Origin: a virus
Lineage: Duplodnaviria > Caudoviricetes
Direction: 5' to 3' (one strand)
DNA: 33,957 nt
IMG/VR virus record: IMGVR_UViG_3300021408_000103
Coordinates: 1 to 33,957 of that record
Shown: piece by piece, positions 6,095 through 33,957 of the stretch
Layout: the number at the start of each line of letters is the position of its first letter
How positions within the stretch are numbered: the stretch's first letter is position 1
The notes under the pieces: generated by a model
Database searches by the model: none
What the model was told of the DNA's origin: nothing
What the model saw: the letters and a program-made list of their open reading frames with translations, nothing else
Position numbers and translations under genes: made by a program

Positions 6095-6105
6095 GGAGGA
6101 ACCTG

Positions 6106-6438: not shown

Positions 6439-6440
6439 CC

Positions 6441-7492: not shown

Positions 7493-7495
7493 CCC

Positions 7496-7750: not shown

Positions 7751-7753
7751 CCC

Positions 7754-8697: not shown

Positions 8698-8715
8698 CCC
8701 CCCGAAGGAGAACCC

Positions 8716-10230: not shown

Positions 10231-10234
10231 GAGC

Positions 10235-10612
10235 TTACTCGGTGACGTTGGCGGTCACGCCCTGCCAGGTGGTGCCGTACATCCAGGTGGCGTCACAGGA
10301 CCAGGAGAGCCGAAGCATGGCGCCGAACGAGTTCTCGGCGTCGACCTGGCCTGACACTTTGTAGTTGTCGCCGTCGGTGGTGGCGACCTCTTCGAGGAAC
10401 TCGGCGGTGCCGGGCGCCTTCAGTTTGGCCTTGACCGCCTCGCGGCAGACGTCGATGGCGCCGGCGTCAGTCGGTCCCTCTGCTTCTGCGCCGCTGTCCT
10501 CGCCGAGGCTGCTGATGATCGTGGCGCCGATCGCGAACACGACGATCACCAGCATCACCCAGATGCAACCGCGGTTGTCCGGCTTGGCCTTCTCGCCGCC
10601 TGCTTCGTCCAT
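10235..10612 (-). CDS. Membrane-anchored moron protein (125 aa)
   Basis: One N-terminal TM helix; CREAVKAKLKAPGTAEF...VDAENSFGA...C domain; antisense insert between chaperone and TMP. Confidence 0.8.
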   Translation of the reverse strand: MDEAGGEKAKPDNRGCIWVMLVIVVFAIGATIISSLGEDSGAEAEGPTDAGAIDVCREAVKAKLKAPGTAEFLEEVATTDGDNYKVSGQVDAENSFGAMLRLSWSCDATWMYGTTWQGVTANVTE

Positions 10613-10687
10613 CGCCCGCCCGCCTTCATGTGAGGACTACTCGGGCGAACCGTAACCGCGTAGAGCGTCAAGCAGAAGGGGGTGTCG

Positions 10688-12922: not shown

Positions 12923-13815
12923 TGGGTGTCGTCATCGTCGACGCAGGCGAGGAGGCGTTCCTCGACCTGGTGCTCGCGGTCAACTACACGCTGCGGCTCT
13001 ACCGCAACAACGTCACCTCGGGCCTGACCGAGGAGCAGATCGACGCCCTCGCCGTCGGGGCGTTCACCGAAGCCAACTTCGCTGGCTACTCGGCGGCGGC
13101 CATGACGGGTGGATCGTGGGTCTCGACGCAGGGCAACCCGTCGATCGGTCAGTACGCCCAGCAGACGTTCACCCGGTCGAGCACCGGTGCCGCGCAGCTG
13201 ATCTACGGCTACTACGTGACGCTCACCTCGGGCGGGGCACTGCGGTGGTTTGAGCAGTTCCCGGCACCGATCTCGGTCGAGTTCATCAGCGATGCGATCC
13301 GCGTCACCCCGAGGGTCACGCTCGACGACGTGGAGGGCAACGACGTGGAAGCCGGAACCATCGTGATGACCGGCCGTGCCGCGGCGCCCACCGGCTGGCT
13401 GCTGTGCGACGGCACGGCCGTGTCCCGCACCACCTACGTCGACCTGTTCACCGCCGTCGGCACAGCCTTCGGGGTCGGCGACGGGTCGACCACGTTCAAC
13501 CTGCCCGACCTCCGCCAGCGCTTCCCGCTGGGCAAGGCCACCTCCGGCACCGGCGCCACGCTGGGCGGCACCGGCGGCAACGTCGACCACGTCCACGGGC
13601 TCGACACCGCCACCTCGCACGCAAAGGCCCGGATCGCCGCCACCTCGGTGGCCGCCCGACAGAAGACGGTCTCCGCCTACAACATCACGATCAACGGCAC
13701 CGGCGTCTCGGGTAGTGCCGATGCGTCGTCGCTGTCCGTCGGCATGGAGCTGGGAGGCAGTTCCGGCACCGGCAACCCGCCGTTCCAGGCCGTGAACTTC
13801 AAGATCAAGACCTGA
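12922..13815 (+). CDS. Tail fibre-type protein with phage tail collar domain
   Basis: GTIVMTG...APTGWLLCDG.AVSRTTY.DLFTAVGT.FG.GDGSTTFNLPDLRQRFPLG; C-terminal NPPFQAVNFKIKT. Confidence 0.85.
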   Translation: MGVVIVDAGEEAFLDLVLAVNYTLRLYRNNVTSGLTEEQIDALAVGAFTEANFAGYSAAAMTGGSWVSTQGNPSIGQYAQQTFTRSSTGAAQLIYGYYVTLTSGGALRWFEQFPAPISVEFISDAIRVTPRVTLDDVEGNDVEAGTIVMTGRAAAPTGWLLCDGTAVSRTTYVDLFTAVGTAFGVGDGSTTFNLPDLRQRFPLGKATSGTGATLGGTGGNVDHVHGLDTATSHAKARIAATSVAARQKTVSAYNITINGTGVSGSADASSLSVGMELGGSSGTGNPPFQAVNFKIKT

Positions 13816-16292: not shown

Positions 16293-16311
16293 CCTTTCGA
16301 GAGGTGACCTG

Positions 16312-17997
16312 ATGCCCGTCCAGATCGACTCCAGGCCCCAGGGCATCCATCACAACTTCCGGCCCGGGCTCACCCTGACCGTGGACCTGGACTGGCAAAC
16401 GCCGGGGGTGCTCGTAGGCCGCACGTTCACGTCCACCCTCAACGGCGTAGCGATGGGCGTGTCGATCGTCGGTGACGTGATGACACTCGAGGCCACGCAG
16501 GCGGAGACCGCGGCGATCGAGGATCCGGTCGAGTGGCTGCTGCTCGAGGACCGCGGCGGGGTCACACCTGAGGCGATCCTGATGGGCACGTGGGTGCCGT
16601 CGGATCAGGCGGCCCTGCGCCCGGCCACGACGACGGTGGTCACCGACCAGGCGGTCACCGTGCAGGTCACCGTGTCGCTCGGCGGCCTGACGACGGCCAC
16701 CTTCAACTCCCACATCGAGACGCTGCATCTCCCGTTCGTCGCGGTCCCTGCCGGGTGGGGCGGTCAGTGGGAGGAGGCCCGCGAGGAGGCCGACACCCGC
16801 CAGGTGAAGGTCCACCTGCACGGCGACTCCATCTACCAAGGCGTCGGCGCCACCAACCCTCGCACCGAAGGCTGCGCCATCCTCACCGGCGACGAGCTGC
16901 GCGACCGCTACGGCGACGGCGGCACCGGCTGGATCCCCTCGGCGCTGCGCACGTCGGCGACCGGCGTGTGGACCTCCGGCATGGGCATGGGCGGCTGCCA
17001 GCTGCGGGCCACGAACACCGCCACCCTGGCATTCACCGACCTACGGGGCTCGGCCCTCCGAATCTTCCACCGCAACGCCAGCATCACCGGGTCGTTCCGC
17101 TGGCGGGTCAACGGCGGCAGCTACACGACGGTCACCCCGCCGACCGTCTTCGGCCAGGACCCGGGTGCGGTCGAGATCAACCCGGGCGGCAACGGGCCCC
17201 ACACCCTCGACGTCGAGTGGGTCAGCGGGACGGTCGACATCTTCGGGGTCGAGGCCACGTTCACCACCGGGGTCGTCACCTACCAGTTCGCCCAATCCGG
17301 TCGGGCAGCGTCCGACTACACGCCCGGCCTCGAGCAGTTCATCACCGGCGTCTCCGCCTCCGGGGTGACGACGACGATCACGACGCCGGGTGCGGGCAGC
17401 TTCACCAACTCCATGATCGGCAAGTTCATCCACGGCCCGGCACAGATCGCCGTGGGGACCACGATCACCGCCGTCGCCTCGGACACCTCAGCGACGATCT
17501 CGGCTGCGACCACGGGGACGATCACGAACCAGTCGTGCACGATCTCGACGAACGGCACCATCGGGGTGCTCGGCGCCAACATGGTGGCCGACCCGTTCCT
17601 CGCCGCTGCCGTCGGTCGACCGGACCTCGTCATCATCCAGCTCGGCGCCAACGACCCGGCCGGTGCGTTCAACTCGGCGGACACGTTCCGGGCCGGCGTG
17701 TCGAAGGTGATGCGCCTGTACTCGGGCAGCGACCAGCTCGACTACGTGCCCACCTTCGTGCTCGTGATCGAGCACATCGCCAACTGGTTCGACATCCAGT
17801 CGGAGTACGCAGCCATGGCCGCCGTGCTGGCCGACCTGGCCGGCGGCAACGGCGCTGCGCTCGTCGACATCTGGGGCATCGGTCACCGGTCGTTCAAGTA
17901 TTGGAACGACCTCGGCATGTTCGCCGACACGATCCACCCGACGACCGCCGGCCACGCCGCCTACGCGGCGCCGGTCATCGACCTGCTCACCCGCTGA
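16312..17997 (+). CDS. SGNH/GDSL hydrolase-domain protein, probably virion-associated
   Basis: Blocks HGDSI, AQSG, QLGAND and DTIHP in order; located in the tail module. Confidence 0.85.
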   Translation: MPVQIDSRPQGIHHNFRPGLTLTVDLDWQTPGVLVGRTFTSTLNGVAMGVSIVGDVMTLEATQAETAAIEDPVEWLLLEDRGGVTPEAILMGTWVPSDQAALRPATTTVVTDQAVTVQVTVSLGGLTTATFNSHIETLHLPFVAVPAGWGGQWEEAREEADTRQVKVHLHGDSIYQGVGATNPRTEGCAILTGDELRDRYGDGGTGWIPSALRTSATGVWTSGMGMGGCQLRATNTATLAFTDLRGSALRIFHRNASITGSFRWRVNGGSYTTVTPPTVFGQDPGAVEINPGGNGPHTLDVEWVSGTVDIFGVEATFTTGVVTYQFAQSGRAASDYTPGLEQFITGVSASGVTTTITTPGAGSFTNSMIGKFIHGPAQIAVGTTITAVASDTSATISAATTGTITNQSCTISTNGTIGVLGANMVADPFLAAAVGRPDLVIIQLGANDPAGAFNSADTFRAGVSKVMRLYSGSDQLDYVPTFVLVIEHIANWFDIQSEYAAMAAVLADLAGGNGAALVDIWGIGHRSFKYWNDLGMFADTIHPTTAGHAAYAAPVIDLLTR

Positions 17998-18007
17998 GGA
18001 GACGCAC

Positions 18008-18187
18008 ATGGATGAACCCTGGCAGCTCGTGCACCCCGACACGCTCGTCGGGCCCGAGCTCGACGCCGTCGTGGCCATGTTCCGCGACGTCGACTGGCAG
18101 GACCAGTCGGCCGTCGAGCAGCGGGTCGCAGCCCTACGTGCTCTGGCCTGCGACCCGCAGGACGACAACCTCGAAATCGCCTCTTAA
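18008..18187 (+). CDS. Hypothetical acidic protein (59 aa)
   Basis: Read by hand: GAGGAG RBS, MDEPWQLVHPDTLVGPELDAVVAMFRDVDWQDQSAVEQRVAALRALACDPQDDNLEIAS. Confidence 0.7.
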   Translation: MDEPWQLVHPDTLVGPELDAVVAMFRDVDWQDQSAVEQRVAALRALACDPQDDNLEIAS

Positions 18188-18199
18188 AGGAGACCCTTC

Positions 18200-18607
18200 A
18201 TGACCGTCGGCCTCGCACCCGCAACCGCCAACGCCTGGCTGAACTGGCTCGTCAACCAGACCACCGCCGGCACCTCACCCGCCGCGATCTGGATCCAACT
18301 CCACACTGCGGACCCCGGCCTCGCCGGCACCACCGCCGTCGCTGGGAACGCCACTCGCAAGAACATCACCGCCTCGTTCCCCGCCGCGTCCGGCAACACC
18401 GGCATCGTCTCCAACGACGTTGCCATCTCCTGGACCGCCGGCGAAGTCGACACGGCCGAGGACTACACCCACTGGGCGCTCTTCGACGCCTCCACGACTG
18501 GGACGTTTCTGTGCTCCGGGCTGATGACCGCCAACGCCGTGCTCGTCGGCGACGAGTTCACGATCCCGATCGGTGACCTCGACCTCTCCCTGTCCGTGAC
18601 GGCCTGA
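18200..18607 (+). CDS. Small beta-sandwich virion/fibre-associated protein (135 aa)
   Basis: AAAGGAG RBS; IQLHTADPG.AGT, HWALFDASTTGTFL.SG, GDEFTIP.GDL pattern common in actinophage tail regions. Confidence 0.75.
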   Translation: MTVGLAPATANAWLNWLVNQTTAGTSPAAIWIQLHTADPGLAGTTAVAGNATRKNITASFPAASGNTGIVSNDVAISWTAGEVDTAEDYTHWALFDASTTGTFLCSGLMTANAVLVGDEFTIPIGDLDLSLSVTA

Positions 18608-18622
18608 TCACGGCCTGACCCC

Positions 18623-20068
18623 GTGGCCGTCGACCTCGTACCGAACGGCGTCTGGTCCCGGGCCTCCACTGGGCTCGCCATCACCGGTGTGTCGTTCTGC
18701 GGCTGGGTCCGCTTTGACACCACGCCGGCCGCGTACCGGGGCTTCGTCTACCACGGCACCACCAGCTACTCGAACTGCCTAGCCCTGGTCCGACTGGCGA
18801 ACGGGACCGTGCGGGCCGAGCACGCCTCGTTCACGGGCCCGGTCACCGCGGTCCTGTCCAACAACACCTGGTACTTCGTGGCGGTCACGGCCACGACCGG
18901 CGCCAACAACTTCATCGTCTACTGGCGGGCCGAAGGCGAGACGTCGCTGCAGTCAGCCGTCGGTACGTGGTCGGGCACCCTGGCGCAGAACACACTGCGC
19001 TACGGCGGCGGTCCCTCCGAAGCTTCGGCCAACTGCCATGACGGCAAGTACGCCTACAACCGGGTGTTCGCCTCCGTGCTCACCCAGGCGCAGCTACTCG
19101 CAGAGTCTGCAGCCACGGCGGCGGTGCTCACCGAGTGGGCCGACTACCCGATGGCTGCCGCCGCCAGCTCGACGACTGATGCCAGCGGTAACGCTCGCAC
19201 CCTGACGTTCACGGCGGGCAGCGGCTCGCAGGGCGACTTCGCTGACCCGAACATCAGCTTGTCCACCCCTGCCACCGGCACTGCTACTGGCACCTTCACG
19301 TTCTCTGGCGCCGCGAGCGGGGTCGGTCGTGGGCTGGGCGCCGCGGCTGGGGCGTTCGTGTTCACGGGTGCGAGCTCGGGGGTACGGGCCCGGCCCGGGG
19401 TCGCGGCGGGCGTGTACGTGTTCACCGGCACAGCGGGGGGTCATCCCCGGGTGCTGGGCGCCGGCACCTCGACGTTCTCGTTCGCTGGGACAGCGACAGG
19501 ATCCCCCGACTCGCCGGCGGTGACCGGGACCGCCACAGGCGTCTACTCGTTCGTTGGCACAGCTTCGGCCATCCGCCGCACCTCCGGTGTCGGAGCAGGC
19601 ACCCTTACCTTCGCGGCCTCCGGAGCCGGTGTACGTCGAGTCAGCGGTCTTGCCGCCTCGAGCTACGGGTTCACGGCCACCGCCTCGGGGGTGGGCCGAG
19701 CTACGGGTTCGTCGTCGGCGCCGTACACGTTCACGGCCGCCGCCATCGGTGTCCGTCGCCGCCTGAGTCTGGCGGCGGGCAGCTACTCGTTCTCCGGCAC
19801 GGGCGCCGGGGTGATCCCTCCTGATGCCGGTGTAGGCCAGGGCGTCGGCGTCTACTCGTTCGTTGGTGAAGGGGCGGGGGTCCGTCGGGCCAGGGGCGCA
19901 GCGGCCGGGGTGTACGTGGTTGCTGCCCTGGGATCGGGCATCCCGCGGGTCCTCGGGCGGGCGGCTGGTGACTACGGGTTCCTGGCCACCGCCGTCATCT
20001 TCCCGGTGCCCGACCCCGACGCCGTCGACCGCATCCTCATCTCCGCCTCCCGACTCGCCCGCCGATAG
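18623..20068 (+). CDS. LamG/ConA-like domain plus 20-aa repeat fibre-like protein
   Basis: N-terminal SFCGWVR, NTWYFVAVT, RVFASVLTQAQL; then 12 repeats of about 20 aa. No clear RBS, so the start is uncertain. Confidence 0.75.
   Translation: MAVDLVPNGVWSRASTGLAITGVSFCGWVRFDTTPAAYRGFVYHGTTSYSNCLALVRLANGTVRAEHASFTGPVTAVLSNNTWYFVAVTATTGANNFIVYWRAEGETSLQSAVGTWSGTLAQNTLRYGGGPSEASANCHDGKYAYNRVFASVLTQAQLLAESAATAAVLTEWADYPMAAAASSTTDASGNARTLTFTAGSGSQGDFADPNISLSTPATGTATGTFTFSGAASGVGRGLGAAAGAFVFTGASSGVRARPGVAAGVYVFTGTAGGHPRVLGAGTSTFSFAGTATGSPDSPAVTGTATGVYSFVGTASAIRRTSGVGAGTLTFAASGAGVRRVSGLAASSYGFTATASGVGRATGSSSAPYTFTAAAIGVRRRLSLAAGSYSFSGTGAGVIPPDAGVGQGVGVYSFVGEGAGVRRARGAAAGVYVVAALGSGIPRVLGRAAGDYGFLATAVIFPVPDPDAVDRILISASRLARR
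19271..20002 (+). repeat. 12 degenerate ~20-codon repeats
   Basis: ATGTATGTFTFSGAASGVGR / GLGAAAGAFVFTGASSGVRA / RPGVAAGVYVFTGTAGGHPR ... VLGRAAGDYGFLATAVIF. Confidence 0.8.
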
Positions 20069-20077
20069 GAGATCGCC

Positions 20078-20926
20078 ATGAAGCGTGGCTTCGTCCTGCA
20101 CCACAACGGCCCAGCGGCCAACTGCCTCGACCGTCCGCACACCCGGTGCGTCGCCTACTGGGCGGCCGTGCGCAGCTTCCACATGGCGCCTGAGCCCAAG
20201 GGCCAGGGCTGGAGCGACATCGCGTACAGCTTCGGTGTGTGCCCGCACGGCATGCGCCTCACTGGCCGGGGCTGGAACAAGAACCAGTTCGCCAACGGCA
20301 CCGACCTCGTCGGCACCAACGACGGGCCCGACTCCGAGTGGTACACGGTCCTCGTCTTCATCGGGATCGGTGAAGCGCCCACCGAGCAGATGGTCGACGG
20401 CGTCGTCGCCCTGATCGACGAGGGCCGGGCGAGTGGTCGTTGCGCCAGCAGGGTGCTGCCACACAACGCCTTCAAACAGAAGGCCTGCCCCGGTCCCGAG
20501 TTCACCACCTACGCCCAACTGTGGGACAACCGGGCGCTCGTCGCCCCCACCCAGAAAGAGGACGACATGACCCCCGAGAACCTCGCAGAGATCAAGGCCG
20601 CCATGAAGGCCGAGGTCGCCAGCGGAGTGAAGCAGGCCGCCAAGTTCCTGACCGTCGGCGGGCCCACGACGATCTTCGACCCGAAGGTGACCGGCAACGA
20701 GTGGATGACCGGTGCCGGCACCGTCACCCTGCCGAAGCTGCTGCTCGCCACCCAGGACGTCGACGTGGATGTGGTCGAGCTGGCCGCCGTCCTCGCGCCC
20801 GTCCTGGCGGCCGCCGTGATCGAGGCCCTGCCGGACGAGGTCACGGACCACCTCGACGCCGAGGAGTTCGAGGCGCTGGTCGTCTCCGCTCTCGGCTCGG
20901 TGCGGCTCACCCCCGACGCCGGCTGA
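20078..20926 (+). CDS. Endolysin, N-acetylmuramoyl-L-alanine amidase (Amidase_2/PGRP-like)
   Basis: AGGAG RBS; VLHH, GWSDIAYSF, GRGW, PH...KACPG zinc-amidase motifs. Confidence 0.9.
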   Translation: MKRGFVLHHNGPAANCLDRPHTRCVAYWAAVRSFHMAPEPKGQGWSDIAYSFGVCPHGMRLTGRGWNKNQFANGTDLVGTNDGPDSEWYTVLVFIGIGEAPTEQMVDGVVALIDEGRASGRCASRVLPHNAFKQKACPGPEFTTYAQLWDNRALVAPTQKEDDMTPENLAEIKAAMKAEVASGVKQAAKFLTVGGPTTIFDPKVTGNEWMTGAGTVTLPKLLLATQDVDVDVVELAAVLAPVLAAAVIEALPDEVTDHLDAEEFEALVVSALGSVRLTPDAG

Positions 20927-20958
20927 CCGTGTGCTGCGACCCGAGGGTGGGGTAGCCG

Positions 20959-21156
20959 GTGTGGCAGGGCCTGACGTGGTCGAACATCGAGCGGGCCATC
21001 CGGCTGGCGCTGGCTACGGGCGCTGGGGTGCGGGAGCTGTTCTTCCAGGCCGAGGCGCAGACCTCGGTGCTGCTCTTCATCTTGGCGGCGCTGGGGCTAC
21101 CGGAGGCGTTGCGGCTCTTGGCCCATCTGGCTCGGGCGCCGGAGACCCTGGAGTGA
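20959..21156 (+). CDS. Small hydrophobic lysis-cassette protein (65 aa)
   Basis: Follows endolysin; hydrophobic SVLLFILAALGLPEALRLL; GTGA-coupled to next ORF. Confidence 0.6.
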   Translation: MWQGLTWSNIERAIRLALATGAGVRELFFQAEAQTSVLLFILAALGLPEALRLLAHLARAPETLE

Positions 21157-21242
21157 ACCGCCTGCTCGCTCCCCGGATGCTGCTCATCTACGACGCCTGC
21201 ATCGCGGCGACCTACGTCTTGTGGATGGTGTGGCACCGATGA
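21153..21242 (+). CDS. Tiny hydrophobic peptide (29 aa)
   Basis: MNRLLAPRMLLIYDACIAATYVLWMVWHR; GTGA overlap upstream and ATGA overlap downstream. Confidence 0.45.
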   Translation: MNRLLAPRMLLIYDACIAATYVLWMVWHR

Positions 21243-21535
21243 AGGTCCCGAGAGTCGTCGTAGGTCTCCTCGCCGTGATGATCATCGGCATGTGCGTCGT
21301 GGCCGGGCTCGGGTTCCGCAAGCTCGAACGCCAGGACGCCCAGGTCGGGGAACTCGTGTCCCGTCTCGACGCCGAGATCGAAGCCCGCGACGTCCAGTCG
21401 TGTGAGAGCGCCAAGGTCGTCCGCGTCGAGCAGCAGGACCTGCTGGAGTTCTTCGCCGCCGGCCGCCCTGCGTTCCTCGCCGAGGTGCACCGCTACTACG
21501 ACGGTCTCCCTGCGCCGGCCGACTGCGGCCCGTGA
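21239..21535 (+). CDS. Single-TM membrane protein with coiled coil (98 aa)
   Basis: MKVPRVVVGLLAVMIIGMCVVAGLG..., two further Cys in the soluble part; within lysis cassette. Confidence 0.7.
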   Translation: MKVPRVVVGLLAVMIIGMCVVAGLGFRKLERQDAQVGELVSRLDAEIEARDVQSCESAKVVRVEQQDLLEFFAAGRPAFLAEVHRYYDGLPAPADCGP

Positions 21536-24105: not shown

Positions 24106-24282
24106 CTAGGACGGGAGCCGAGGCTCCTGCCGTGGACTCCCGCGAATGATGCGGGCTGCGCCGGCCATCGCGGCGAGGACGTCCTTCGACGACCACCCGA
24201 ACCTGTCGGCCAGCTCGTGGACTGACGGGTCGGCGGCGCACATCTGGCACTCGCACAGCAGGCCATGGATGCGGTGCGGCAT
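24106..24282 (-). CDS. Small CxCxxC protein (58 aa)
   Basis: TGATG-coupled to the recombinase; MPHRIHGLLCECQMCAADPSVHELADRFGWSSKDVLAAM. Confidence 0.55.
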   Translation of the reverse strand: MPHRIHGLLCECQMCAADPSVHELADRFGWSSKDVLAAMAGAARIIRGSPRQEPRLPS

Positions 24283-24908
24283 CACGAAGCGCTCCAATCT
24301 CTTTCTCGCATCATCGCGACGACGTCCATAGGTGCCAGGTGGGAGATGTAGCGCTCCGTCCCCGACAGGGACTCGTGGCCGAGCTGCGCCTGGATCTGGT
24401 GGATGGGGGTGCCACGCTGGGCGAGGTCGAACGCGAAGGAGTGCCGCAGACCGTGCGGGTGGACCCGCTTCTCGATGCCGCTTCGCGTGGCGAGCCGAGC
24501 GAGGGCGGTGCGGATGTAGCGCTGACTGAGCGGGGTGCCCATGTTCCCCTCGGAGTAGGTGGTGAAGATGGGGTGGCGACCGTTCAGTCCGAGGTCGCTG
24601 CGCCGGGTGAGCCACCGGTCGAGCAGCCCGCAGGCGAACGGGTCGAGGCCAACGAACCGCCACTTCGAGTTCTTCCCGCAGCGCACCCTCACGGTCCCGT
24701 CCTCCGTGTCGGCGTCCCGCGGGTACAGGTCGATGGTCTCGGCGATGCGAAGACCGGCGCCGTACATGACTGCGATGAGGGCTCGGACCCGGATGCCGGA
24801 CGAGGATCGGTTCGATGCTGCCGTCAGCAGACGGCGGACCTCGTCGGAGGTGAGCGGTTCAGGCGGGAACTTCTGGCCCTTGTTCGTCGGGGGCGTGGGC
24901 GCAGGCAC
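24282..24908 (-). CDS. Tyrosine recombinase, catalytic domain only (208 aa)
   Basis: GAAAGGA RBS; all catalytic residues: GLR(IAE), GK, HGLRH, LGH, TERY. Confidence 0.93.
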   Translation of the reverse strand: MPAPTPPTNKGQKFPPEPLTSDEVRRLLTAASNRSSSGIRVRALIAVMYGAGLRIAETIDLYPRDADTEDGTVRVRCGKNSKWRFVGLDPFACGLLDRWLTRRSDLGLNGRHPIFTTYSEGNMGTPLSQRYIRTALARLATRSGIEKRVHPHGLRHSFAFDLAQRGTPIHQIQAQLGHESLSGTERYISHLAPMDVVAMMRERDWSAS

Positions 24909-26732: not shown

Positions 26733-26989
26733 CGGGCCTCCTCAGTGCCGTCGGCGCCCGGGTCGATGCGCACCATGCGCCAGCCGGTGGCATCGAGGGC
26801 GGCCTGCAGGTCGCTCGCGCTCACTCGGGTCTCGGTGCGGGGGAAGCGGGTGGTGAGCCACAGGAGGAAGAGGGTGATGAGGAGGCCGATGACGGTCCCC
26901 CCTCCGGTCTCGCCCCCGAGGGTGACATCTGCATTCCAACCGGCGGAGGCCAGGAGTCCGAAGCGGATGAGCTGGTTGTCCCAGTTCAC
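26729..26989 (-). CDS. Membrane protein (86 aa)
   Basis: TVIGLLITLFLLWL TM segment; GTGA-coupled to the RHH gene. Confidence 0.65.
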   Translation of the reverse strand: MNWDNQLIRFGLLASAGWNADVTLGGETGGGTVIGLLITLFLLWLTTRFPRTETRVSASDLQAALDATGWRMVRIDPGADGTEEAR

Positions 26990-27144
26990 TGGGTGTCTGC
27001 CTGACGCTCGGCGTCCATGCGCTCGGCCTCGGAGGCGAGCCCTCGGATGACGAGTTCCCGCAGGGTCTCGTCGCTGTCGAGCGCTAGGCCTTTCAGCTTC
27101 TTATGCAGGTCACTGGGAAAGTCTTTGATGTGAAGCACAGACAT
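26986..27144 (-). CDS. Ribbon-helix-helix (Arc/CopG-like) regulator (52 aa)
   Basis: Read by hand, below the ORF-track cutoff: MSVLHIKDFPSDLHKKLKGLALDSDETLRELVIRGLASEAERMDAERQADTQ. Confidence 0.8.
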   Translation of the reverse strand: MSVLHIKDFPSDLHKKLKGLALDSDETLRELVIRGLASEAERMDAERQADTQ

Positions 27145-27239
27145 CCTCTGTTTCTAGCGCAGCCCTCGTAGCAGCGGATGCGTAGATGATAGCGCAGGCT
27201 GTGCAGGATACGCATGCATCCTCTGCTACCGTCACATCC
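27142..27239. promoter_or_regulatory. Divergent promoter/operator region
   Basis: GTAGCAGCGGATGC (27168-27181) / GCATCCTCTGCTAC (27216-27229), 13/14 inverted match; CATCCTCTG also at 27142-27150; TACCGT -10-like hexamer at 27227-27232, 7 nt before ATG 27240. Confidence 0.6.
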
Positions 27240-27410
27240 ATGTGGACTCTCCCCATGGGCTTCGGCCTCGCAGTAGTGGGTGCCGCGCTGCACCTCTGGG
27301 ACTGGTTGCGGACACCGTCCGTGCCGGCCCGGCTCACCGTCGGTCGCGTCGTCGTCTTCGCCGCAGGCGTGGCCGCCGCCAACCTCATCGTCGGGCAGGT
27401 GGCCTCGTGA
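27240..27410 (+). CDS. Small two-TM protein, Spd-like (56 aa)
   Basis: MWTLPMGFGLAVVGAALHLWDWLR...; probably leaderless; first gene of the transfer operon. Confidence 0.65.
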   Translation: MWTLPMGFGLAVVGAALHLWDWLRTPSVPARLTVGRVVVFAAGVAAANLIVGQVAS

Positions 27411-27622
27411 CCATCTCCCTCGGACTCCTGATGCTCGTGATCGTGGGCCTCGCCTGGAAGATGAAGGGCGCCCAGCTCCCGCACGTCATCCTCGGCATGC
27501 TGCTCGTGAAGGCCGCGACGCCGGGCAGCATCGTCGACGACTTCGCCGGCCAGGGCCTGGCCATCGTCAACACGATCGTGAACTCGGTCGCCACCGCCCT
27601 CGGCCAGGGGAACCTCGTCTGA
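27407..27622 (+). CDS. Small membrane protein, Spd-like (71 aa)
   Basis: GTGA-coupled; MTISLGLLMLVIVGLAWKMKGAQLPHVILGMLL resembles small TM proteins of actinomycete conjugative elements. Confidence 0.75.
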   Translation: MTISLGLLMLVIVGLAWKMKGAQLPHVILGMLLVKAATPGSIVDDFAGQGLAIVNTIVNSVATALGQGNLV

Positions 27623-27753
27623 TGGGCGCCTTCGCGGTGTTCACCCTCATCCGCGGCGTGCTGGGCCTCGTCACCGGGGTCCTGCTCCGCTACCCGAAAC
27701 CCCTGCTCGGCCTGCTGGCGGTGTGGGTGCTGGTCAAGGCGGCCGGCGGGTGA
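27622..27753 (+). CDS. Small hydrophobic protein (43 aa)
   Basis: TGATG-coupled; MGAFAVFTLIRGVLGLVTGVLLRYPKPLLGLLAVWVLVKAAGG. Confidence 0.65.
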   Translation: MGAFAVFTLIRGVLGLVTGVLLRYPKPLLGLLAVWVLVKAAGG

Positions 27754-28655
27754 GGGTCAACGAGTGGGAGCGCTACGCCACATGGTCCGTGGTGGGGCTC
27801 GTCGCCGCGCTCGGCCTGATCGGCGCGGTGAACAGCTTCACCCACGTCGCCGAAGCCGTACGCCCGTCGTTCGGTGAGCTGGCCCCAACGGTCCCGCTCG
27901 GCATCGACATCGGCATCGCCGCGTTCACCGGCCTGGACCTGCTGATGGCCCGCATGGGGATGCGCACCCGGTGGCTGCGCCTCGTCCCCTGGGCGCTGGT
28001 GGGTGTGACCGTGTACCTCAACGTCGCCGGTGAGGTCACCCTCGTCGGCCAGCTCGCACACGGGGTCCTCCCGCTGTTGTGGGTCGTGGCCGTCGAGGCC
28101 GGCGCCCACGTGGTCCGCACCCTCGCCGGGCTCTCCGGCCGCGGTGCGCCGAGGATGGACCGCATCCGGCCCTCCCGGTGGCTTCTGGCCCCGCTGCCCA
28201 CGCTGCTGCTGTGGCGCCGCATGGTCCTCTGGGAGCTGCGCTCGTACACGCAGGCCCTGGACCGCGAGCAGGACCGCCTCCTGGCCCGCAGCGACCTACA
28301 GGACGCACACGGCGGCGTCGCCTACCGGTGGAAGGCACCGCGCCGGGACCGGGTCATGTACCGCCTGGGCCGCCGGGCCCCGGCCCAGCCCGAGCCGGCC
28401 CCCGCACTGGCCCCCGTGGCAGTCGCCTCGAGCGCGCCACCCGTGGCCCAGCCCGGCCCCGCGAGCTCCAACGGCAACGGCCACAAGCTGTCCGTCGACG
28501 ACGCGGCGCGGCTCATCCACGAGCAGGCGCAGGCCGCCGGCCGTGACCTCTCCGCCCGGGAGCTGGTCCGCAGACTGCAGGACGAGGGCCACGCGTGTGG
28601 CCGCGCCAGGGCCGGCCAGCTACTCCGTGGCTTCGCCCGCGAGGTGGCCTCGTGA
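27750..28655 (+). CDS. DUF2637/SpdA-like membrane protein with C-terminal HTH-like region
   Basis: Four TM segments, VPLGIDIGI, HGVLPLLWVVAVE, RWLLAPLPT..LWRRMVLWELRSY, C-terminal LSARELVRRL...GRARAGQL. Confidence 0.82.
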   Translation: MRVNEWERYATWSVVGLVAALGLIGAVNSFTHVAEAVRPSFGELAPTVPLGIDIGIAAFTGLDLLMARMGMRTRWLRLVPWALVGVTVYLNVAGEVTLVGQLAHGVLPLLWVVAVEAGAHVVRTLAGLSGRGAPRMDRIRPSRWLLAPLPTLLLWRRMVLWELRSYTQALDREQDRLLARSDLQDAHGGVAYRWKAPRRDRVMYRLGRRAPAQPEPAPALAPVAVASSAPPVAQPGPASSNGNGHKLSVDDAARLIHEQAQAAGRDLSARELVRRLQDEGHACGRARAGQLLRGFAREVAS

Positions 28656-30856
28656 AGCCGCTCTGGCGCCGCGCCTACAGCGGGGACGTGGCCCCGGGGT
28701 GGCTCCGTCGCAGGGCCGGCCGGGACCAGCCGAGGGCCAACGGGAGCCATGAGGACCACCGGCCGGAGGGCCAGGACCACGAGGGCCAGGCCATGGACCG
28801 GCCGTGGCCCTCGGAGCCGGACCAGGAGGGCCACCGGTCCCTGATGCCGCCGCGGCCCTACGTGGCCGAGGACCACTGGACCGAGGTGGACGTGGTCCCG
28901 GTGGTCCCGGACGCCTGGCGAGATCCACGCGCCGGGGCCAGGCTCGCGTACCTCAGGGCCAAGCACTGGCTGGGCTTCCACCTGGTCCGCACCCCGGTCT
29001 ACGCGGGGCGGAACCTGCTCTGGTCGCCCCGTGGCTTGCGCCGTGACGTCGTGGGCCTGTGGCGCTGGGTGACGGACTTCGAGAACCGGGACGTCATCTG
29101 GGCGGCCGGTAAGGCAGCGGAGGAGACCGGCGACTTCCACCAGTACGACCGGCTGACCAAGTCCCGCGAGGCCAGGGTGAAGCCACGCCGGCTCTCGCTG
29201 GCCTTCATGGCCCTGGCCCTCGGTGGCCTCGGCTACCTGGTCCTCATGGACCTGTGGCTCCTGGCCCTCGTGGCCCCGGTCCTGGTCCTGGTCCTCGGCT
29301 ACCAGGGCCGCCCATCGGACCGGCCCTACTTCGAGTCCTCGGTCACGTCGGCCCCGGAGGCCATCCGCATCACAGGCGAGATGATCCTCGTGGCCCTCCA
29401 CAGGGCCGGCCTCGCCCGGGAGGCCGATGGACCTGAGGCCCCCACCTTCCTGGCCCCCGGCGTCGCCCAGGAGCACAAGGGCTGGGGAGCCACCGTGGAC
29501 CTGCCGCTCGGCTACTCGGCCGAGACGGCGATCAAGGCCAAGACCAAGATCGCCGCCAACCTGCGCATCAGCGGCCGCCGCCTGTTCATCGAAGAGGCCG
29601 AGCACGCAGGCCAGATCAAGCTGTGGATCGCTGACTCTGACCCGCTGGCCCGCCCACCGGTCGTGTCGCCGCTGGTCAAGGCATCGAAGTTCGACCTGTG
29701 GCGGGAGATCCCGTTCGGCCAAGACGAGAAGGGCCAGCAGGTGTCGTTCCTGCTGCTGTGGACCTTCGTCCTGATCGGGGCGCTCCCGGGCATGGGCAAG
29801 ACCTTCGTGCTCCGACTGATCGTCGCCGCCGCTGCGCTCGACCCCTACTCGAAGCTGCTGCTGTGGGACGGCAAGGGCGGCAAGGACCACGCCCCGTTCG
29901 AGCGGGTGTGCCACGCCTTCGGTGCCGGCGCCGCCGACGAAGTGGCCCGAGCCCTGCTCGCCGCCACGTCTGACCTGGTCAGGGACATGGACGGCCGGTA
30001 CGCCAAGATCGCCAAGCTCCCGGTCGAGCGTGTCCCCGAGGGGAAGCTGACCTCGGCCGCGTCCCGGGACCGCAAGCTCAACATGCCGGTCACGCTCCTG
30101 GCGATCGACGAGTTCCAGGTGTACCTGCAGAACAAGCTGTACGGGAAGGACATCCTCGACAACCTCACGAAGATCGCCCAGCGCGGCCGTGGTGCCGGGA
30201 TCATCCTGGCCCTGGCCACGCAGAGGCCCAGCTCAACGGTCATGAAGACCGACTTCCGGGACCTGTTCGGCACCCGGATCGCCCTGCGCATGCCCAACAG
30301 CGACGCAGCGAAGATGATCCTGGGCGACGGCGGCTCTCGCACGGGGCTCGACTCGTCGACGTTCAAGGCCACCGACAAGGGTGTGTGCATCCTGCTGGGA
30401 GCCGATGAGGGCGCCCTCGTGGACCGTGGCGCCGTGGTCGTCAAGTCCCACCTCATGGACCTCCCGGCCGCCACGCAGGTGGCGAACAGGGCCCGTGCGC
30501 TGCGGGAGGGCGCCGGCACCCTGACCGGGGTCGCAGCGGGGGAGCCCGAGGCCCTCACGGATGAGGTGCTGAACCACGCCGCCGCCGCGTTCGAGGGCGA
30601 GGACCAGGCCCACTCCGAGGTGCTTGTCGCACGGATGGCTGCGACCTACCCGGGCCTCTACGGGACGTGGGATCAGAGCGACCTGGCCGCCGCCCTCGGC
30701 CGCTTCGGCATCGCCGCCGGGAACCAGACGTGGGCGGCGCCGCTCGACGACGGACCGAAGCGCAACCGCAAGGGCTTCGCCCTCAAGCAGGTGCTCGATG
30801 TCCTCGTCGAGAAGGCCGGCGAAGTGCCCGATTCGCCCACCGGAACCGCCGATTGA
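28652..30856 (+). CDS. traB: TraB-like FtsK/SpoIIIE DNA translocase
   Basis: GTG 28652 coupled; TM pair, Walker A GALPGMGKT, DGKGG, Walker B LLAIDEFQ, GRGAGI...ATQRP, C-terminal winged-helix-like W...DLAAAL..FGI...Q.W...NRKG. Confidence 0.88.
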   Translation: MKPLWRRAYSGDVAPGWLRRRAGRDQPRANGSHEDHRPEGQDHEGQAMDRPWPSEPDQEGHRSLMPPRPYVAEDHWTEVDVVPVVPDAWRDPRAGARLAYLRAKHWLGFHLVRTPVYAGRNLLWSPRGLRRDVVGLWRWVTDFENRDVIWAAGKAAEETGDFHQYDRLTKSREARVKPRRLSLAFMALALGGLGYLVLMDLWLLALVAPVLVLVLGYQGRPSDRPYFESSVTSAPEAIRITGEMILVALHRAGLAREADGPEAPTFLAPGVAQEHKGWGATVDLPLGYSAETAIKAKTKIAANLRISGRRLFIEEAEHAGQIKLWIADSDPLARPPVVSPLVKASKFDLWREIPFGQDEKGQQVSFLLLWTFVLIGALPGMGKTFVLRLIVAAAALDPYSKLLLWDGKGGKDHAPFERVCHAFGAGAADEVARALLAATSDLVRDMDGRYAKIAKLPVERVPEGKLTSAASRDRKLNMPVTLLAIDEFQVYLQNKLYGKDILDNLTKIAQRGRGAGIILALATQRPSSTVMKTDFRDLFGTRIALRMPNSDAAKMILGDGGSRTGLDSSTFKATDKGVCILLGADEGALVDRGAVVVKSHLMDLPAATQVANRARALREGAGTLTGVAAGEPEALTDEVLNHAAAAFEGEDQAHSEVLVARMAATYPGLYGTWDQSDLAAALGRFGIAAGNQTWAAPLDDGPKRNRKGFALKQVLDVLVEKAGEVPDSPTGTAD

Positions 30857-30860
30857 GGCC

Positions 30861-30941
30861 CTATCCCCCTATCCCCCTACCGCGCGGATCCTATCCCCCC
30901 CGATGGGAATGGATACCCGCTCTGACCTGGACTCTATCCCC
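30861..30941 (+). repeat. clt-like 8-bp direct repeats (CTATCCCC x4)
   Basis: Perfect copies at 30861, 30869, 30891 and 30934, starting 4 nt after the traB stop, with degenerate neighbours. Confidence 0.7.
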
Positions 30942-31022
30942 CAGCCCCCAAACCCCGATGAGAGCCGAAACCGGCCGAAACAGGGGTCAGCGCCTCGCGC
31001 CGCCCCAGATAGGACCCACACC

Positions 31023-31235
31023 GTGAAGGTGCTCTACGTCTTCGACGACACCGTGATCGTCACCGACGAGTTCGAACTCGACCCCGGCGACGCGACCGAC
31101 GTCCGCAACGCCAAGTCCCGCGCCGAACTGCGCGACATCCTCGACCCGCTGATCGCCGAGCACGCCCTCTCTGAGCCGCGCCCCACGCTCGGCTCCCACA
31201 AGCGGACCATCGACTTCGGGCTTGAGGAGACCTGA
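31023..31235 (+). CDS. Hypothetical acidic protein (70 aa)
   Basis: GTG 31023 after AGGA; MKVLYVFDDTVIVTDEFELDP...; coding-like codon usage. Confidence 0.6.
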   Translation: MKVLYVFDDTVIVTDEFELDPGDATDVRNAKSRAELRDILDPLIAEHALSEPRPTLGSHKRTIDFGLEET

Positions 31236-31444: not shown

Positions 31445-32971
31445 ATGGAGACGAAGGCGGGTGCGTGCGTGGCGATCTACGTGCGCATCTCAGTGGACCG
31501 TGCCGGCCGGCGCGAGGGCGTCGGCCGGCAGGAGAAGTGGGGCCGGGCCTACGCCGCCCGGGTGTGGCCCGGTGTCCCGGTGCGGGTGTTCGCCGACAAC
31601 GACGCCTCGGCCTTCGACGAGGACTCGGTGCGGCCCGGCTACGACGCCCTCCTCGACGCGATCCGCCGGCGCGAGGTACTCCACCTGTGGTCTGTGGAGC
31701 AGACCCGCATCGAGGCGAACAACCGCCGATGGGTCGGTCTCGTCGCCGACCTCGACGACGCCGGGCTCGACGAGATCCACACGGAGCGGGACGGGGTCGT
31801 CCGCCTCGACGAGGTGGCCGACATCAAGCAGGCACTCTCCCACCACGAGCGCAAGCGGGCCCGCAAGCGGCTGCGCGACACGCTGAACGACCTCGCCGAC
31901 GAAGGGCGACCTCACGGAGGCAACACCTTCGGGTACCGCCCAGCTGTCGATGCGGACGGCCGCAAAACGATGCGCTCCCCACCGGCCGAAGTCTTCGCCC
32001 TGCGGTGGTGGGCCGGCGCCGTGCTCGCCGGCTGGTCGGTCACCAACATCGGCCGGCAGATGAACCAGTTCAACGCGCTCCGATGGATGTTCGGCCACCG
32101 CGGCGTCGAGCCCATCATGGCCTGGCGCATCCGACGTGACGGCAGTGTGGTCAGCCCGCTGTGGGTGCCGCCGAAGATCCGGGGGGCGCTCACGAACCCG
32201 ACCGTCGCCGGGTTCCGCGTCCACCACGGTGAGGTGCACCGGCGTGGGACGTGGGAGCCGATCCTCGACGAGGTCACCTGGCGCCGGGTGTGCGCCGCCC
32301 TGTCCGCCCCCCGGAAGGTGACCCGCCGGGACGGCAAGACGATGACCATCAGTCCGACCATCCGCCCGGCCCGCAAGTTCCAGCTCACCGGGTACGTGTA
32401 CTGCGGGCGCGAGGAATGCGGGCACCACATGACCGGCCGCACCCAACGCGACCGCGGACGGCAGGAGCCACGGATCTACTTCTGCGTCCGGGACCCCGAC
32501 GCCGGGGGAGGGTGCAACGGCACCGGGATCGTGGCGCCGCCGCTCGAGGCCGATTTCAAGCGACGCCTGTTCGACCGCCTGCGCAGCAAGCAGTTCCGTG
32601 CCGCTCTGGCTTCGGACGGCACGCTGGCGCGGCGCGAGGAGATCGCCGCCGAGATGTCCGCGGTGGAGCAGCGCAACGTGGCGCTCGCTCGGCGCTGGGC
32701 GACGCCGGGGAGTGGCCTGTCGGACGAAGCGTGGGATGTCGCACGGCAGGGGCTGGCTGACCAACTGAGCGCTCTCAGCGCCGAACTGGTAGCTCTGCCC
32801 CCTCCGCTCGTGGATATCGATCCTGAGGCGATCATGGCGGTCTGGGACCACCATGATCGCCTCAGGATCGATATCCACGAGCGGCGGGTGGTCGACCGGA
32901 TCGTGATCGGCCCGGCTGTTCCGGGCGCCTCGTGGTACGAGCGCTCCCGCGTGACCGTCGTGTGGCGCTAG
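31445..32971 (+). CDS. int: Large serine recombinase (integrase)
   Basis: AIYVRIS catalytic Ser, FADND.SA, RPGY, FGY, LTNP..AG, WEPIL, zinc ribbon CG..CG...YFC...C, coiled coil; TAAGGT -10-like hexamer 7 nt before ATG 31445. Confidence 0.93.
   Translation: METKAGACVAIYVRISVDRAGRREGVGRQEKWGRAYAARVWPGVPVRVFADNDASAFDEDSVRPGYDALLDAIRRREVLHLWSVEQTRIEANNRRWVGLVADLDDAGLDEIHTERDGVVRLDEVADIKQALSHHERKRARKRLRDTLNDLADEGRPHGGNTFGYRPAVDADGRKTMRSPPAEVFALRWWAGAVLAGWSVTNIGRQMNQFNALRWMFGHRGVEPIMAWRIRRDGSVVSPLWVPPKIRGALTNPTVAGFRVHHGEVHRRGTWEPILDEVTWRRVCAALSAPRKVTRRDGKTMTISPTIRPARKFQLTGYVYCGREECGHHMTGRTQRDRGRQEPRIYFCVRDPDAGGGCNGTGIVAPPLEADFKRRLFDRLRSKQFRAALASDGTLARREEIAAEMSAVEQRNVALARRWATPGSGLSDEAWDVARQGLADQLSALSAELVALPPPLVDIDPEAIMAVWDHHDRLRIDIHERRVVDRIVIGPAVPGASWYERSRVTVVWR
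32804..32884. repeat. Perfect 34-bp inverted repeat inside the integrase 3' end
   Basis: CCGCTCGTGGATATCGATCCTGAGGCGATCATGG (32804-32837), 13-nt spacer CGGTCTGGGACCA, exact reverse complement at 32851-32884. Confidence 0.95.
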
Positions 32972-33171
32972 GCGAGGTCGTCGAACTCCCCGGCCTTGGC
33001 CCCGTCGAGCAGGGCCCGGATCTCGGGGCGGGTGAACTCCAGCACGGGGGAGCCGTCGCCCAGCTTGCTGTCGCGCAGCCCGATCGTGCCGTTGCCGAGA
33101 TCAGCCAGCTGGACGCACGAGCCGTTCTGGCCGGAGGCCGATGCCTTGCGCCAGGTCACGGATTCGCTCAT
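32968..33171 (-). CDS. DUF397 (BldB/Scr2-like) protein (67 aa)
   Basis: WRKASAS...GSCVQLA...IGLRDSK....PVLEFT..E...L..G.K.GEFD. Confidence 0.92.
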   Translation of the reverse strand: MSESVTWRKASASGQNGSCVQLADLGNGTIGLRDSKLGDGSPVLEFTRPEIRALLDGAKAGEFDDLA

Positions 33172-33956
33172 CGGTATTTCTCCTCGGCTGTGGTGCGGAT
33201 CAGGTCGAGAGACTCGCTGGGTGGGAGGGCGACTGCGGAGAGGTAGCGCCACAGGGCGACGTGTGCTTCGACGTCCGGTGGCCGGTCGAGGTAGTGAGGT
33301 CCGGCCCGGTCTTCGGTGACGACCATGTAGGGCGCGGGGCCATCGGTCGAGGCGTAGGCGGAGAACGACCCGAACGCCGCGCAGAACACGCCGGCAGCGA
33401 GGGGCAGCACCTGGACCGTGACGTCCGGCAGGGACGCCACGGAGGCCAGGTGTGCGAGCTGGGCGGCCATCACCTCGCCGCCGCCGGCGACCCGGTAGAG
33501 AACCGACTCGTCGAGCACGACGGACAAGCGCAGGGGGTTGGGCTGGCGGGTGAGGACGGCTTGGCGGGCGACACGGGTGCCGACCTTCTGGGCGACGTGG
33601 TCCGGGTTGACCGGCGAGGGCCCGACACCCTCGACGGCGGTCGCGTACTCCGGCGTCTGCAACAGCCCGTGGACGACGACGGGCTCGAACGCCCAGATCC
33701 GAGCGGCGGCCTGTTCGAGGGAGGCCAGGTGTCCGAGCCAGTTCGGCACGGCGTGCCCGTTGGGGGCGACGGCCTGGTCCAGCAGCAGCGCGAGCTCGGG
33801 CAGCGTCACCTCGAGCGCCTGGGCGATCTGCGGGCGGGTGTCAGGGTGGGGTAGTCGCCGGCCCTGCTCCCAGTCCCTGACCGATGCGACCGAGGCGCCG
33901 ACCGCTTCCGCGAGTCGCTCCTGACTGAATCCCTGTTCCTCTCGGCGGGCCCGCAG
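33168..33956 (-). CDS. XRE HTH + DUF5753 (WhiJ/Scr1-like) regulator, 5' end outside window
   Basis: Frame open to window edge: LRARREEQGFSQERLAEAVGASVASVRDWEQGRRLP; then LEQAA..IWAFEP.VVHGLLQTPEYA, LDESVL.R..GG.EVMAAQL.HL. Confidence 0.92.
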   Translation of the reverse strand: MRARREEQGFSQERLAEAVGASVASVRDWEQGRRLPHPDTRPQIAQALEVTLPELALLLDQAVAPNGHAVPNWLGHLASLEQAAARIWAFEPVVVHGLLQTPEYATAVEGVGPSPVNPDHVAQKVGTRVARQAVLTRQPNPLRLSVVLDESVLYRVAGGGEVMAAQLAHLASVASLPDVTVQVLPLAAGVFCAAFGSFSAYASTDGPAPYMVVTEDRAGPHYLDRPPDVEAHVALWRYLSAVALPPSESLDLIRTTAEEKYR

Positions 33957-33957
33957 G

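What the first reader, a model, noticed from the sequence alone, without database searches (positions are those of the whole stretch)
26986..30950. Siphophage apparently carrying a complete TraB-type conjugation module (candidate conjugative phage)
Seen: between the lysis cassette and the integrase/XRE module lies a coupled operon of three small TM genes, a DUF2637/SpdA-like gene, a TraB/FtsK-like translocase and 8-bp repeats, divergent from an RHH regulator. No Rep, relaxase, T4SS or host gene is visible. Established: Streptomyces plasmids and AICEs transfer double-stranded circular DNA using TraB bound to clt repeats, helped by Spd membrane proteins, without a relaxase. Inference: the excised or plasmid-form prophage could move cell to cell through TraB as well as in virions, bypassing receptor-based resistance.
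Basis: partly seen in the sequence, partly recalled or inferred. Interest (0 to 1): 0.85.

Follow-up and report, generated by a model that had tools for sequence, protein, structure and literature searches.

The report
Conjugation-type DNA pump inside soil phage
A temperate soil phage, likely of an Acidimicrobiales-type actinobacterium, carries in its own genome the membrane DNA pump, helper membrane genes and a repeat site of the kind Streptomyces plasmids use to move between cells, so it likely can also spread its DNA without virus particles (untested; one distant precedent is known).

Summary
A siphophage (terminase to lysis, 0.2-21.7 kb) is followed by an RHH-like gene and a coupled operon: three small membrane genes, DUF2637 and a TraB-type FtsK pump (35% to pSVH1 TraB; model matches the FtsK motor). 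Behind it lies a 170-bp element with 4x CTATCCCC and a 10-mer also found just after traB of pSVH1. It is unlikely to be a chimera or inserted AICE. Re-assembled contigs bridge lysis and module at similar depth, a second assembly lists the virion and module proteins on 54,353-bp contigs, no Rep turned up, and a 55-kb relative with different head genes keeps the module in the same slot. New here: a GGNCC word array inside traB, a probable Acidimicrobiales host, and a complete circular analogue in a tractable isolate (pPaSha2, Pseudonocardia alni). Transfer is untested, and packaging of the module could not be checked. Precedents exist: plasmid-phage pZL12 (very distant pump) and SpdB2-like genes on phiC31 and VWB, already proposed to spread phage DNA. 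The scan noted similar modules on seven other genomes. Verdict: new variant of a known kind.

The parts
32..21535 (+). Siphophage virion and lysis arm: putative TerS 32-298 (by position only), TerL 189-1637, portal, HK97-type protease, capsid 4198-5457, connector and tail genes, tape measure 10682-12922, endolysin 20078-20926, spanin-like 21221-21535
   Evidence: Pfam/PHROG; no family hit for the putative TerS
24282..24908 (-). Catalytic-domain-only tyrosine recombinase (208 aa); possibly resolves circle dimers (inferred)
   Evidence: PF00589 E 4e-37; 94% identical in G001, dN/dS 0.11; pPaSha2 also has a short one, 184 aa
26986..27144 (-). RHH/Arc-like regulator divergent from the operon (likely TraR/Kor role, inferred)
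   Evidence: Atlas lead; 73% identical in G001
27240..27410 (+). Small hydrophobic gene 1 (56 aa)
   Evidence: no counterpart seen in G001
27407..27622 (+). Small hydrophobic gene 2 (71 aa)
   Evidence: 61% identical in G001, also in L015
27622..27753 (+). Small hydrophobic gene 3 (43 aa)
27750..28655 (+). DUF2637 membrane protein: predicted four-helix N-terminal bundle, Pro/Ala linker, predicted three-helix C-terminal domain; SpdB2-like layout
   Evidence: 41% over 185 aa to phage VWB gp24; hhalign to pSVH1 SpdB2 only probability 6.8
28652..30856 (+). TraB-type FtsK/SpoIIIE translocase (734 aa): two TM segments, Walker A GALPGMGKT, Walker B AIDE, predicted winged-helix C-terminus
28652..29461 (.). 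GGNCC word array written into traB codons 1-270
   Evidence: 40 observed vs 19.8+-3.3 in synonymous shuffles, 0 of 500 reach it; G001 43 vs 18.2; top-ranked word in the window, L001 and L015, not in 10 other traB genes
30857..31025 (+). clt-like element: CTATCCCC x4 (30861, 30869, 30891, 30934) and CTCTGACCTG at 30920
   Evidence: (145 of 172 nt identical in G001)
31445..32971 (+). Large serine integrase; the 43-bp hairpin at 32800-32888 is an assembly artefact
32968..33957 (-). DUF397 (32968-33171) and XRE-DUF5753 (from 33168, cut by the contig end): captured regulator pair or host flank

Best explanation
This is a temperate siphophage whose own genome holds a TraB-type DNA pump operon and a clt-like repeat site, which likely lets the excised circular phage DNA be pumped into a touching cell or neighbouring compartment without a virion. 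Shown: the genes, their coupling, the fold class of the pump, the repeat element, and the same module in the same genomic slot of a related phage. Inferred from the pSVH1 model (PMC4447253, PMC3583192): the RHH-like protein represses the operon; after excision by the serine integrase, membrane-anchored TraB hexamers load through the predicted winged-helix domain on the CTATCCCC element and translocate double-stranded circles; DUF2637 and the small membrane proteins form the helper complex; the incoming circle integrates again. The short tyrosine recombinase may resolve circle dimers, and the GGNCC array may be a second docking zone, for example for the DUF2637 C-terminal domain; both are speculation.
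For: Pump: profile vs pSVH1 TraB probability 100, E 9e-47 over 389 columns; model matches the E. coli FtsK motor (Z 30.1, rmsd 3.7, 344 aligned) and TcpA (Z 27.8); catalytic motifs invariant or nearly so in 28 homologues; motor dN/dS 0.34, C-terminus 0.30 against G001. cis site: directly after the traB stop, as in pSVH1, pWTY27; 84% conserved in G001 against 74% for traB DNA; CTCTGACCTG single-copy in the window, in the G001 stretches searched (L001, L003, L004) and in pSVH1, each just behind traB. Part of the phage: unitigs 13958-21592 (depth 9.67), 21563-21741 (6.1) and 21712-31742 (8.8) overlap; TerL, capsid, endolysin, both recombinases, DUF2637 and TraB are each listed with a 54,353-bp contig; G001 (55 kb, other head genes) has lysis - serine integrase - Tyr recombinase - RHH - TM - DUF2637 - TraB - repressor/cro - early genes; G008 (CheckV 100%), G002, G006 and circular pPaSha2 carry TraB beside lysis or tail genes.
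Against: No transfer, expression or virion data. The C-terminal profile does not match the C-terminus of pSVH1 TraB (E 300), so clt binding rests on a predicted fold and on position. DUF2637 is not shown homologous to SpdB2. Phages VWB and Gilgamesh and 5 of 5 further viral records tested carry DUF2637 with no TraB motor found, so these genes can serve phages without a pump. 0 of 5 TerL relatives tested (24-49% complete) show TraB. TraB transfer is documented in mycelial hosts; this host's growth form is unknown, and only 7 of 401 genomes of the probable host class have any homologue, 1 of them close. dS is probably saturated at GC3 about 0.9, so the ratios are rough. The two runs are one sample and may be the window's source.
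Confidence: 0.5

Rival explanations
1. The pump works only inside one organism: it tethers the replicating or excised phage circle to the membrane and moves it through septa or into daughter cells (segregation or intramycelial spread), replacing ParAB, with no transfer to new hosts.
Against: In pSVH1, traB plus clt is the part needed for transfer between strains, and both are kept here; nearest non-phage relatives are AICE-type elements (L079, L012).
Confidence: 0.22
2. The 22-33 kb block is an independent AICE or satellite, or its remnant, inserted in or beside a prophage and merely carried along.
For: The parts are AICE parts; two recombinases lie in the block; a strain bubble sits at 21592-21712; depth falls to 5.4-6.3 at the right end; the XRE/DUF397 pair resembles host genes.
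Against: No Prim-Pol in G000, G001, G006, G008 while the AICE in G003 rings; no Rep among the scanned ORFs; no direct repeat over 12 bp across the flanks; G001's only Tyr recombinase and the only serine integrase seen in it lie in this block next to repressor/cro; the serine integrase changes side between the two phages; GC3 is the same as in virion genes.
Confidence: 0.1
3. The operon was co-opted as a lysogen function unrelated to spreading its own DNA, such as superinfection exclusion, defence or Kil-type toxicity at the membrane.
For: It sits in the usual accessory slot between lysis and immunity genes; unregulated traB is probably toxic (PMC4447253); motor-less DUF2637 cassettes occur in VWB and Gilgamesh.
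Against: The unique clt-like site is conserved more strongly than the gene, which points to action on the phage's own DNA.
Confidence: 0.12
4. The link between virion genes and module is an assembly chimera.
For: The window does hold one local mis-assembly, the hairpin at 32800-32888; coverage is low.
Against: Overlapping unitigs of a different assembler bridge lysis and module in both runs; the second assembly; the same linkage in G001.
Confidence: 0.03

Closest known systems
TraB/clt/Spd transfer system of Streptomyces venezuelae plasmid pSVH1 (PMC4447253; record NC_007431)
   Same: TraB motor 35% identical over 348 aa; coupled upstream operon of small genes plus a multi-TM protein; divergent regulator; 8-bp direct repeats and CTCTGACCTG straight after traB.
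   Different: Host element is a tailed phage, not a rolling-circle plasmid; RHH-like instead of GntR regulator; repeat word differs; C-terminal domain and SpdB2 show no significant sequence match; no rep gene.
Streptomyces plasmid-phage pZL12/phiZL12 (Zhong et al. 2010, not held; record NC_013420)
   Same: [quoted passage not shown]
   Different: 90 kb, with ParAB and a GntR regulator, described as replicating extrachromosomally (PMC7157519). Its gp71 is only very distantly related (probability 1.5), and no DUF2637 was found in it. The window's phage is about 54 kb (inferred) with a serine integrase.
AICEs (Int + Tra + Rep; definition in PMC3218068)
   Same: FtsK-type Tra and a serine integrase; nearest non-phage relatives are AICE-type elements in an Acidimicrobiales MAG (L079: TraB 41%, DUF2637 48%) and L012.
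   Different: No Rep, Prim-Pol or Xis found; full virion and lysis arm; the 2011 survey found no AICE in Acidimicrobidae.
SpdB2-like genes of actinophages phiC31 and VWB (PMC4447253, refs 34, 35)
   Same: DUF2637 protein 41% identical to VWB gp24 (that gp24 is the protein the paper means is my inference); VWB also has a TGACCTG-plus-repeat stretch behind the cassette.
   Different: No FtsK motor was found beside VWB gp24; the window has a complete one.
pPaSha2 of Pseudonocardia alni Shahu (CP052773.1, deposited as a plasmid)
   Same: 41.9-kb circle with terminase (30% to the window's), portal, HK97 protease, capsid, holin, XRE, short Tyr recombinase, DUF2637, FtsK (34%) and CTCTGACCTG about 290 bp behind it.
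   Different: Other host order and TraB sub-clade; portal annotated in two pieces; the strain paper PMC8928166 has no occurrence of 'pPaSha' or 'prophage'.

Membership tests
TraB/clt dsDNA transfer system | Membrane-anchored FtsK/SpoIIIE-type ATPase related to TraB | tested here: met
TraB/clt dsDNA transfer system | C-terminal winged-helix recognition domain | tested here: inconclusive
   Model shows helix-strand-helix-helix-strand-strand-helix at 635-722 with good pLDDT; no structural hit tested for that part; no sequence match to the pSVH1 C-terminus
TraB/clt dsDNA transfer system | cis element of 7-9 bp direct repeats next to traB | tested here: met
TraB/clt dsDNA transfer system | TraB binds the element and transfers DNA between cells | not testable with these tools
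   needs EMSA and matings
TraB/clt dsDNA transfer system | Coupled spd membrane genes and a divergent repressor | tested here: inconclusive
   layout met; homology to pSVH1 Spd proteins not shown
AICE | Integrase and FtsK-type Tra | tested here: met
AICE | RepSA, RepAM or Prim-Pol replication gene | tested here: inconclusive
   Prim-Pol not found, with a positive control; RepSA and DUF3631 searches rang nowhere; none among 59 ORFs; record incomplete
AICE | No virion genes within the element | tested here: not met
   virion arm contiguous with the module
Temperate siphophage (Caudoviricetes) | Terminase, portal, HK97 capsid, tail with tape measure, lysis genes, integrase | tested here: met
Temperate siphophage (Caudoviricetes) | Closed genome, att sites, particles | not testable with these tools
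   linear fragment, CheckV 49%; the 54,353-bp contig could not be fetched
Plasmid-phage (pZL12 type) | Plasmid replication and partition genes (Rep, ParAB) | tested here: inconclusive
   none among the window's scanned ORFs or the 35 G001 proteins scanned; both records incomplete

The most novel reading that the evidence does not exclude
Integrative temperate phages of soil actinobacteria, including Acidimicrobiia, have repeatedly captured AICE TraB/clt modules and use them as a second, virion-free route of infection. The prophage excises, is pumped as dsDNA into a neighbour and re-integrates, so one element is both phage and conjugative element and reaches cells that lack its receptor. The GGNCC array in traB is a second, lineage-specific loading code.
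Probability: 0.35. Interest if true: 0.8.

Novelty: new variant of a known kind. Interest (0 to 1): 0.55.

Why it matters
If the pump moves phage DNA between cells, temperate actinophages in soil have a contact route that needs no particle, adsorption or lysis. That would change how lysogeny, host range and gene flow are modelled for them, and would extend TraB transfer beyond mycelial Actinomycetales. The long-standing suggestion that phage Spd-like genes spread phage DNA (PMC4447253) becomes directly testable, because a complete analogue sits in a strain with working genetics (pPaSha2 in P. alni Shahu, PMC8928166).

Tried and rejected
1) The hairpin at 32800-32888 as an att site or signal: rejected. 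Contigs of both runs differ there, and the other assembly's integrase has an ordinary C-terminus. 2) Recent exchange of the Tyr recombinase (94% identity): rejected, since its dS (0.32) is like that of its neighbours; my notebook entry 2 is corrected by entry 4. 3) The Nonomuraea gerenzanensis hit as part of plasmid-phage PhiNon1: rejected; no virion genes were recognised by eye, and it looks like a chromosomal AICE near gyrase genes. 4) att-like direct repeats between 21.5-24.3 kb and 30.85-33.3 kb: only three of 11-12 bp; serine att sites would escape this test. 5) Rfam: 0 hits in the window and 0 at E<=1 in 21.7-27.3 kb; ARAGORN 0. 6) Fold searches with the DUF2637 model: no Foldseek match at E<=0.001, best Z 8.0 to generic helical bundles. 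7) TraB against 50,697 cultured-phage records: 6 weak hits, none over 29% coverage. 8) RepSA and DUF3631 searches had no positive control and prove nothing. 9) G006 holds two terminase sets and may be a fused assembly, so it is weak support; L006 lies at a provirus edge and was not counted as phage. 10) A 21-mer from the 24.1-kb hairpin found nothing in viral contigs. 11) Literature searches for a described TraB-carrying integrative phage: one search gave 0 papers with all five terms since 2015; (listings only) showed none. Subscription papers, including Zhong 2010, are not held, and no supplements were opened. 12) No complex prediction was run; the careful tree did not finish and no one-clade test was done.
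Full report
What the window is. It is a whole 33,957-bp linear virus record, rated 49% complete by CheckV. Pfam and PHROG scans of 59 ORFs give TerL, portal, HK97 protease, capsid, connector and tail genes, tape measure, endolysin and a spanin-like gene from 0.2 to 21.5 kb. They give a 208-aa tyrosine recombinase at 24.3 kb, DUF2637 and an FtsK-family protein at 27.7-30.9 kb, a large serine integrase, DUF397 and an XRE-DUF5753 gene cut by the contig end. GC and GC3 are level across the arms. Most early genes are missing.

The observation. The module is as described: a 52-aa leftward gene, then genes of 56, 71, 43, 301 and 734 aa with overlapping stop and start codons. The 52-aa protein has no Pfam hit; RHH/Arc rests on Atlas look-alikes at 0.90-0.92. 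CTATCCCC occurs four times in the window, all within 85 bp of the traB stop, against 0.38 expected.

The pump. A profile of 28 homologues matches pSVH1 TraB at probability 100 over 389 columns (35% identity over 348 aa). The AlphaFold model (mean pLDDT 75.9) matches the FtsK motor and the pCW3 coupling protein TcpA best. Walker A, Walker B and neighbouring motif residues are invariant or nearly so. The C-terminal 90 residues are modelled with a winged-helix pattern and are 80% conserved in G001. Their profile finds pPaSha2 (E 2e-19) but not pSVH1 TraB (E 300) or chromosomal FtsK. Recognition of the repeats by this domain is therefore inferred. In a quick maximum-likelihood tree of 76 motor domains, the three chromosomal FtsKs form one side of a branch, and the window groups with G001 and five database proteins at support 100. 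The six phage-labelled rows need three changes (at least two forced; 53 of 500 shuffles as low). 63 rows were left without a group label and the careful search did not finish, so repeated capture is suggested, not shown.

The cis elements. The 172 bp after traB are 145/172 identical in G001, whereas traB DNA is 73.8% identical. The 10-mer CTCTGACCTG is single-copy in the window (30920), in the G001 stretches searched and in pSVH1, where it lies just behind traB next to a cluster of 8-bp repeats; pPaSha2 has two copies, one about 290 bp behind its ftsK. A looser form, TGACCWG, lies within 400 nt after traB in 50 of 120 loci, against 617 of 3152 background windows. More distant relatives show CTAG-core repeats at the same place. 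PMC3583192 (passages) describes clt loci as direct and inverted repeats next to tra, bound by Tra. GGNCC occurs 40 times in traB codons 1-270 against 19.8+-3.3 in synonymous shuffles (0 of 500), and 43 times against 18.2 in G001. Only 17 of the 40 sites align, so the density is kept while sites turn over; the word is under-used in the tape measure gene (7 vs 18.9). It was picked after a word scan. It ranks first in 3 of 13 traB genes tested, namely the window and its two nearest loci L001 and L015. Its role is unknown.

Is the module part of the phage? Two public runs of one sample hold the stretch and may be its source, so they test the assembly, not the distribution. In X1, unitigs run 2-8762 (depth 11.5), 9841-21592 (9.67), 21563-21741 (6.1, with a 3.2 variant), 21712-31742 (8.8), 31758-32913 (6.34) and 32886-33957 (5.4). 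X2 bridges 21018-21868 and 30890-32373. There is a slope but no step at 22.7 kb; depth is lowest over the integrase end and the XRE pair. In exact look-ups, TraB and TerL, capsid, endolysin, both recombinases and DUF2637 each have a cluster member on a 54,353-bp contig; 2 of the 10 queries were not found, probably through my choice of start codon. That this is one contig and the whole phage is inferred from the equal length. G001 (55,086 bp) has a different head module but shares tail genes and, from 22 to 32 kb, the Tyr recombinase (94%), RHH (73%), DUF2637 (78%), TraB (65%) and serine integrase (50%), followed by repressor/cro, Erf, WhiB and HNH genes. This is ordinary temperate-phage order with the module between integrase and immunity genes. 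Of the five viral loci found with the TraB profile, four lie beside lysis or tail genes (G001, G002, G006, G008); L006 lies at a provirus edge, and G006 may be fused. True AICE-type relatives (L079, L012) differ in having Prim-Pol and a full tyrosine integrase and no virion genes nearby. Against generality: 0 of 5 TerL relatives tested (of 11 found; all under 50% complete) show TraB.

Host. A TraB 67% identical to the window's comes from a contig binned in an Acidimicrobiales MAG. The XRE is 64% identical to a gene of MAG G003, the only one of 401 genomes of its order with a hit at E<=1e-20. G003 also holds an AICE with related TraB and DUF2637, a 36% identical serine integrase and an 82% identical 70-bp hairpin. 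An Acidimicrobiales-type host is therefore likely but unproven. PMC3218068 (passages) found no AICEs in Acidimicrobidae in 2011.

What is known. [quoted passage not shown] The DUF2637 protein is 41% identical to VWB gp24 and 45% to Gilgamesh gp79, and no TraB motor was found beside either. pZL12 is a plasmid-phage with a transfer locus. I could not read the original paper and rely on passages in PMC3583192, PMC4487206, PMC5431353 (also section 5) and PMC7157519, and on its sequence record, whose FtsK-like gp71 is only remotely related. pPaSha2 of P. alni Shahu, deposited as a plasmid, is by its annotation a 41.9-kb circular HK97-type phage with the same layout; the strain has working genetics (PMC8928166, abstract and passages). 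Earlier notes of this scan report similar modules on seven other genomes; they are unchecked and I do not count them as support.

Verdict. A real, phage-borne TraB/clt-type module under purifying selection. The most likely function is virion-free movement of the excised phage circle between cells (0.5). Movement within one filament or at division (0.22), a lysogen membrane function (0.12), a passenger AICE (0.1) and a chimera (0.03) are the rivals. It is a new variant of a known kind; interest 0.55.

Noticed in passing
window 32800-32888: 43-bp inverted repeat inside the serine integrase; absent from both runs' contigs and from the other assembly's protein, so an assembly artefact.
   Followed up: yes
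window 24059-24130: Non-coding hairpin (z -4.2 on the + strand), 82% identical to a stretch of Acidimicrobiales MAG G003:C124; no Rfam hit. Possibly an undescribed RNA or DNA element.
   Followed up: partly
window 21592-21712: Strain variant just after the lysis genes: 119 bp replaced by 80 other bases in a minor contig. A second variable patch lies at 9182-9284.
   Followed up: no
window 1-31: The window and the X1 unitig both start about 30 bp upstream of the putative TerS gene, and depth slopes down from there; this could be a physical genome end or packaging start.
   Followed up: no
window 31381-31420: Short imperfect inverted repeat upstream of the serine integrase, a possible attP; folding is no better than shuffles.
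   Followed up: partly
window 32968-32971: The serine integrase and DUF397 stop codons overlap on one CTAG, leaving no room for an att site between them.
   Followed up: partly
L160/L161 (CP052773.1): pPaSha2, deposited as a plasmid of P. alni Shahu, is a circular tailed-phage genome with DUF2637 and FtsK; its portal is annotated in two pieces.
   Followed up: partly
L162:4923-8300 (phage VWB): DUF2637 gene, small membrane gene and a 253-aa protein with a hydrophobic segment and a weak match to the TraB C-terminus (E 0.17) but no motor, followed by TGACCTG and repeats: perhaps a motor-less version of the cassette.
   Followed up: partly
G006 (L201, L202): 48.5-kb viral record with two different terminase-portal-capsid sets; tandem prophages or a fused assembly.
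   Followed up: partly
G003 (L079, L199, L207): 5.9-Mb Acidimicrobiales MAG with an AICE and at least six XRE-DUF5753 genes, a family I recall as typical of mycelial actinomycetes; unusual among 401 genomes of its order.
   Followed up: partly
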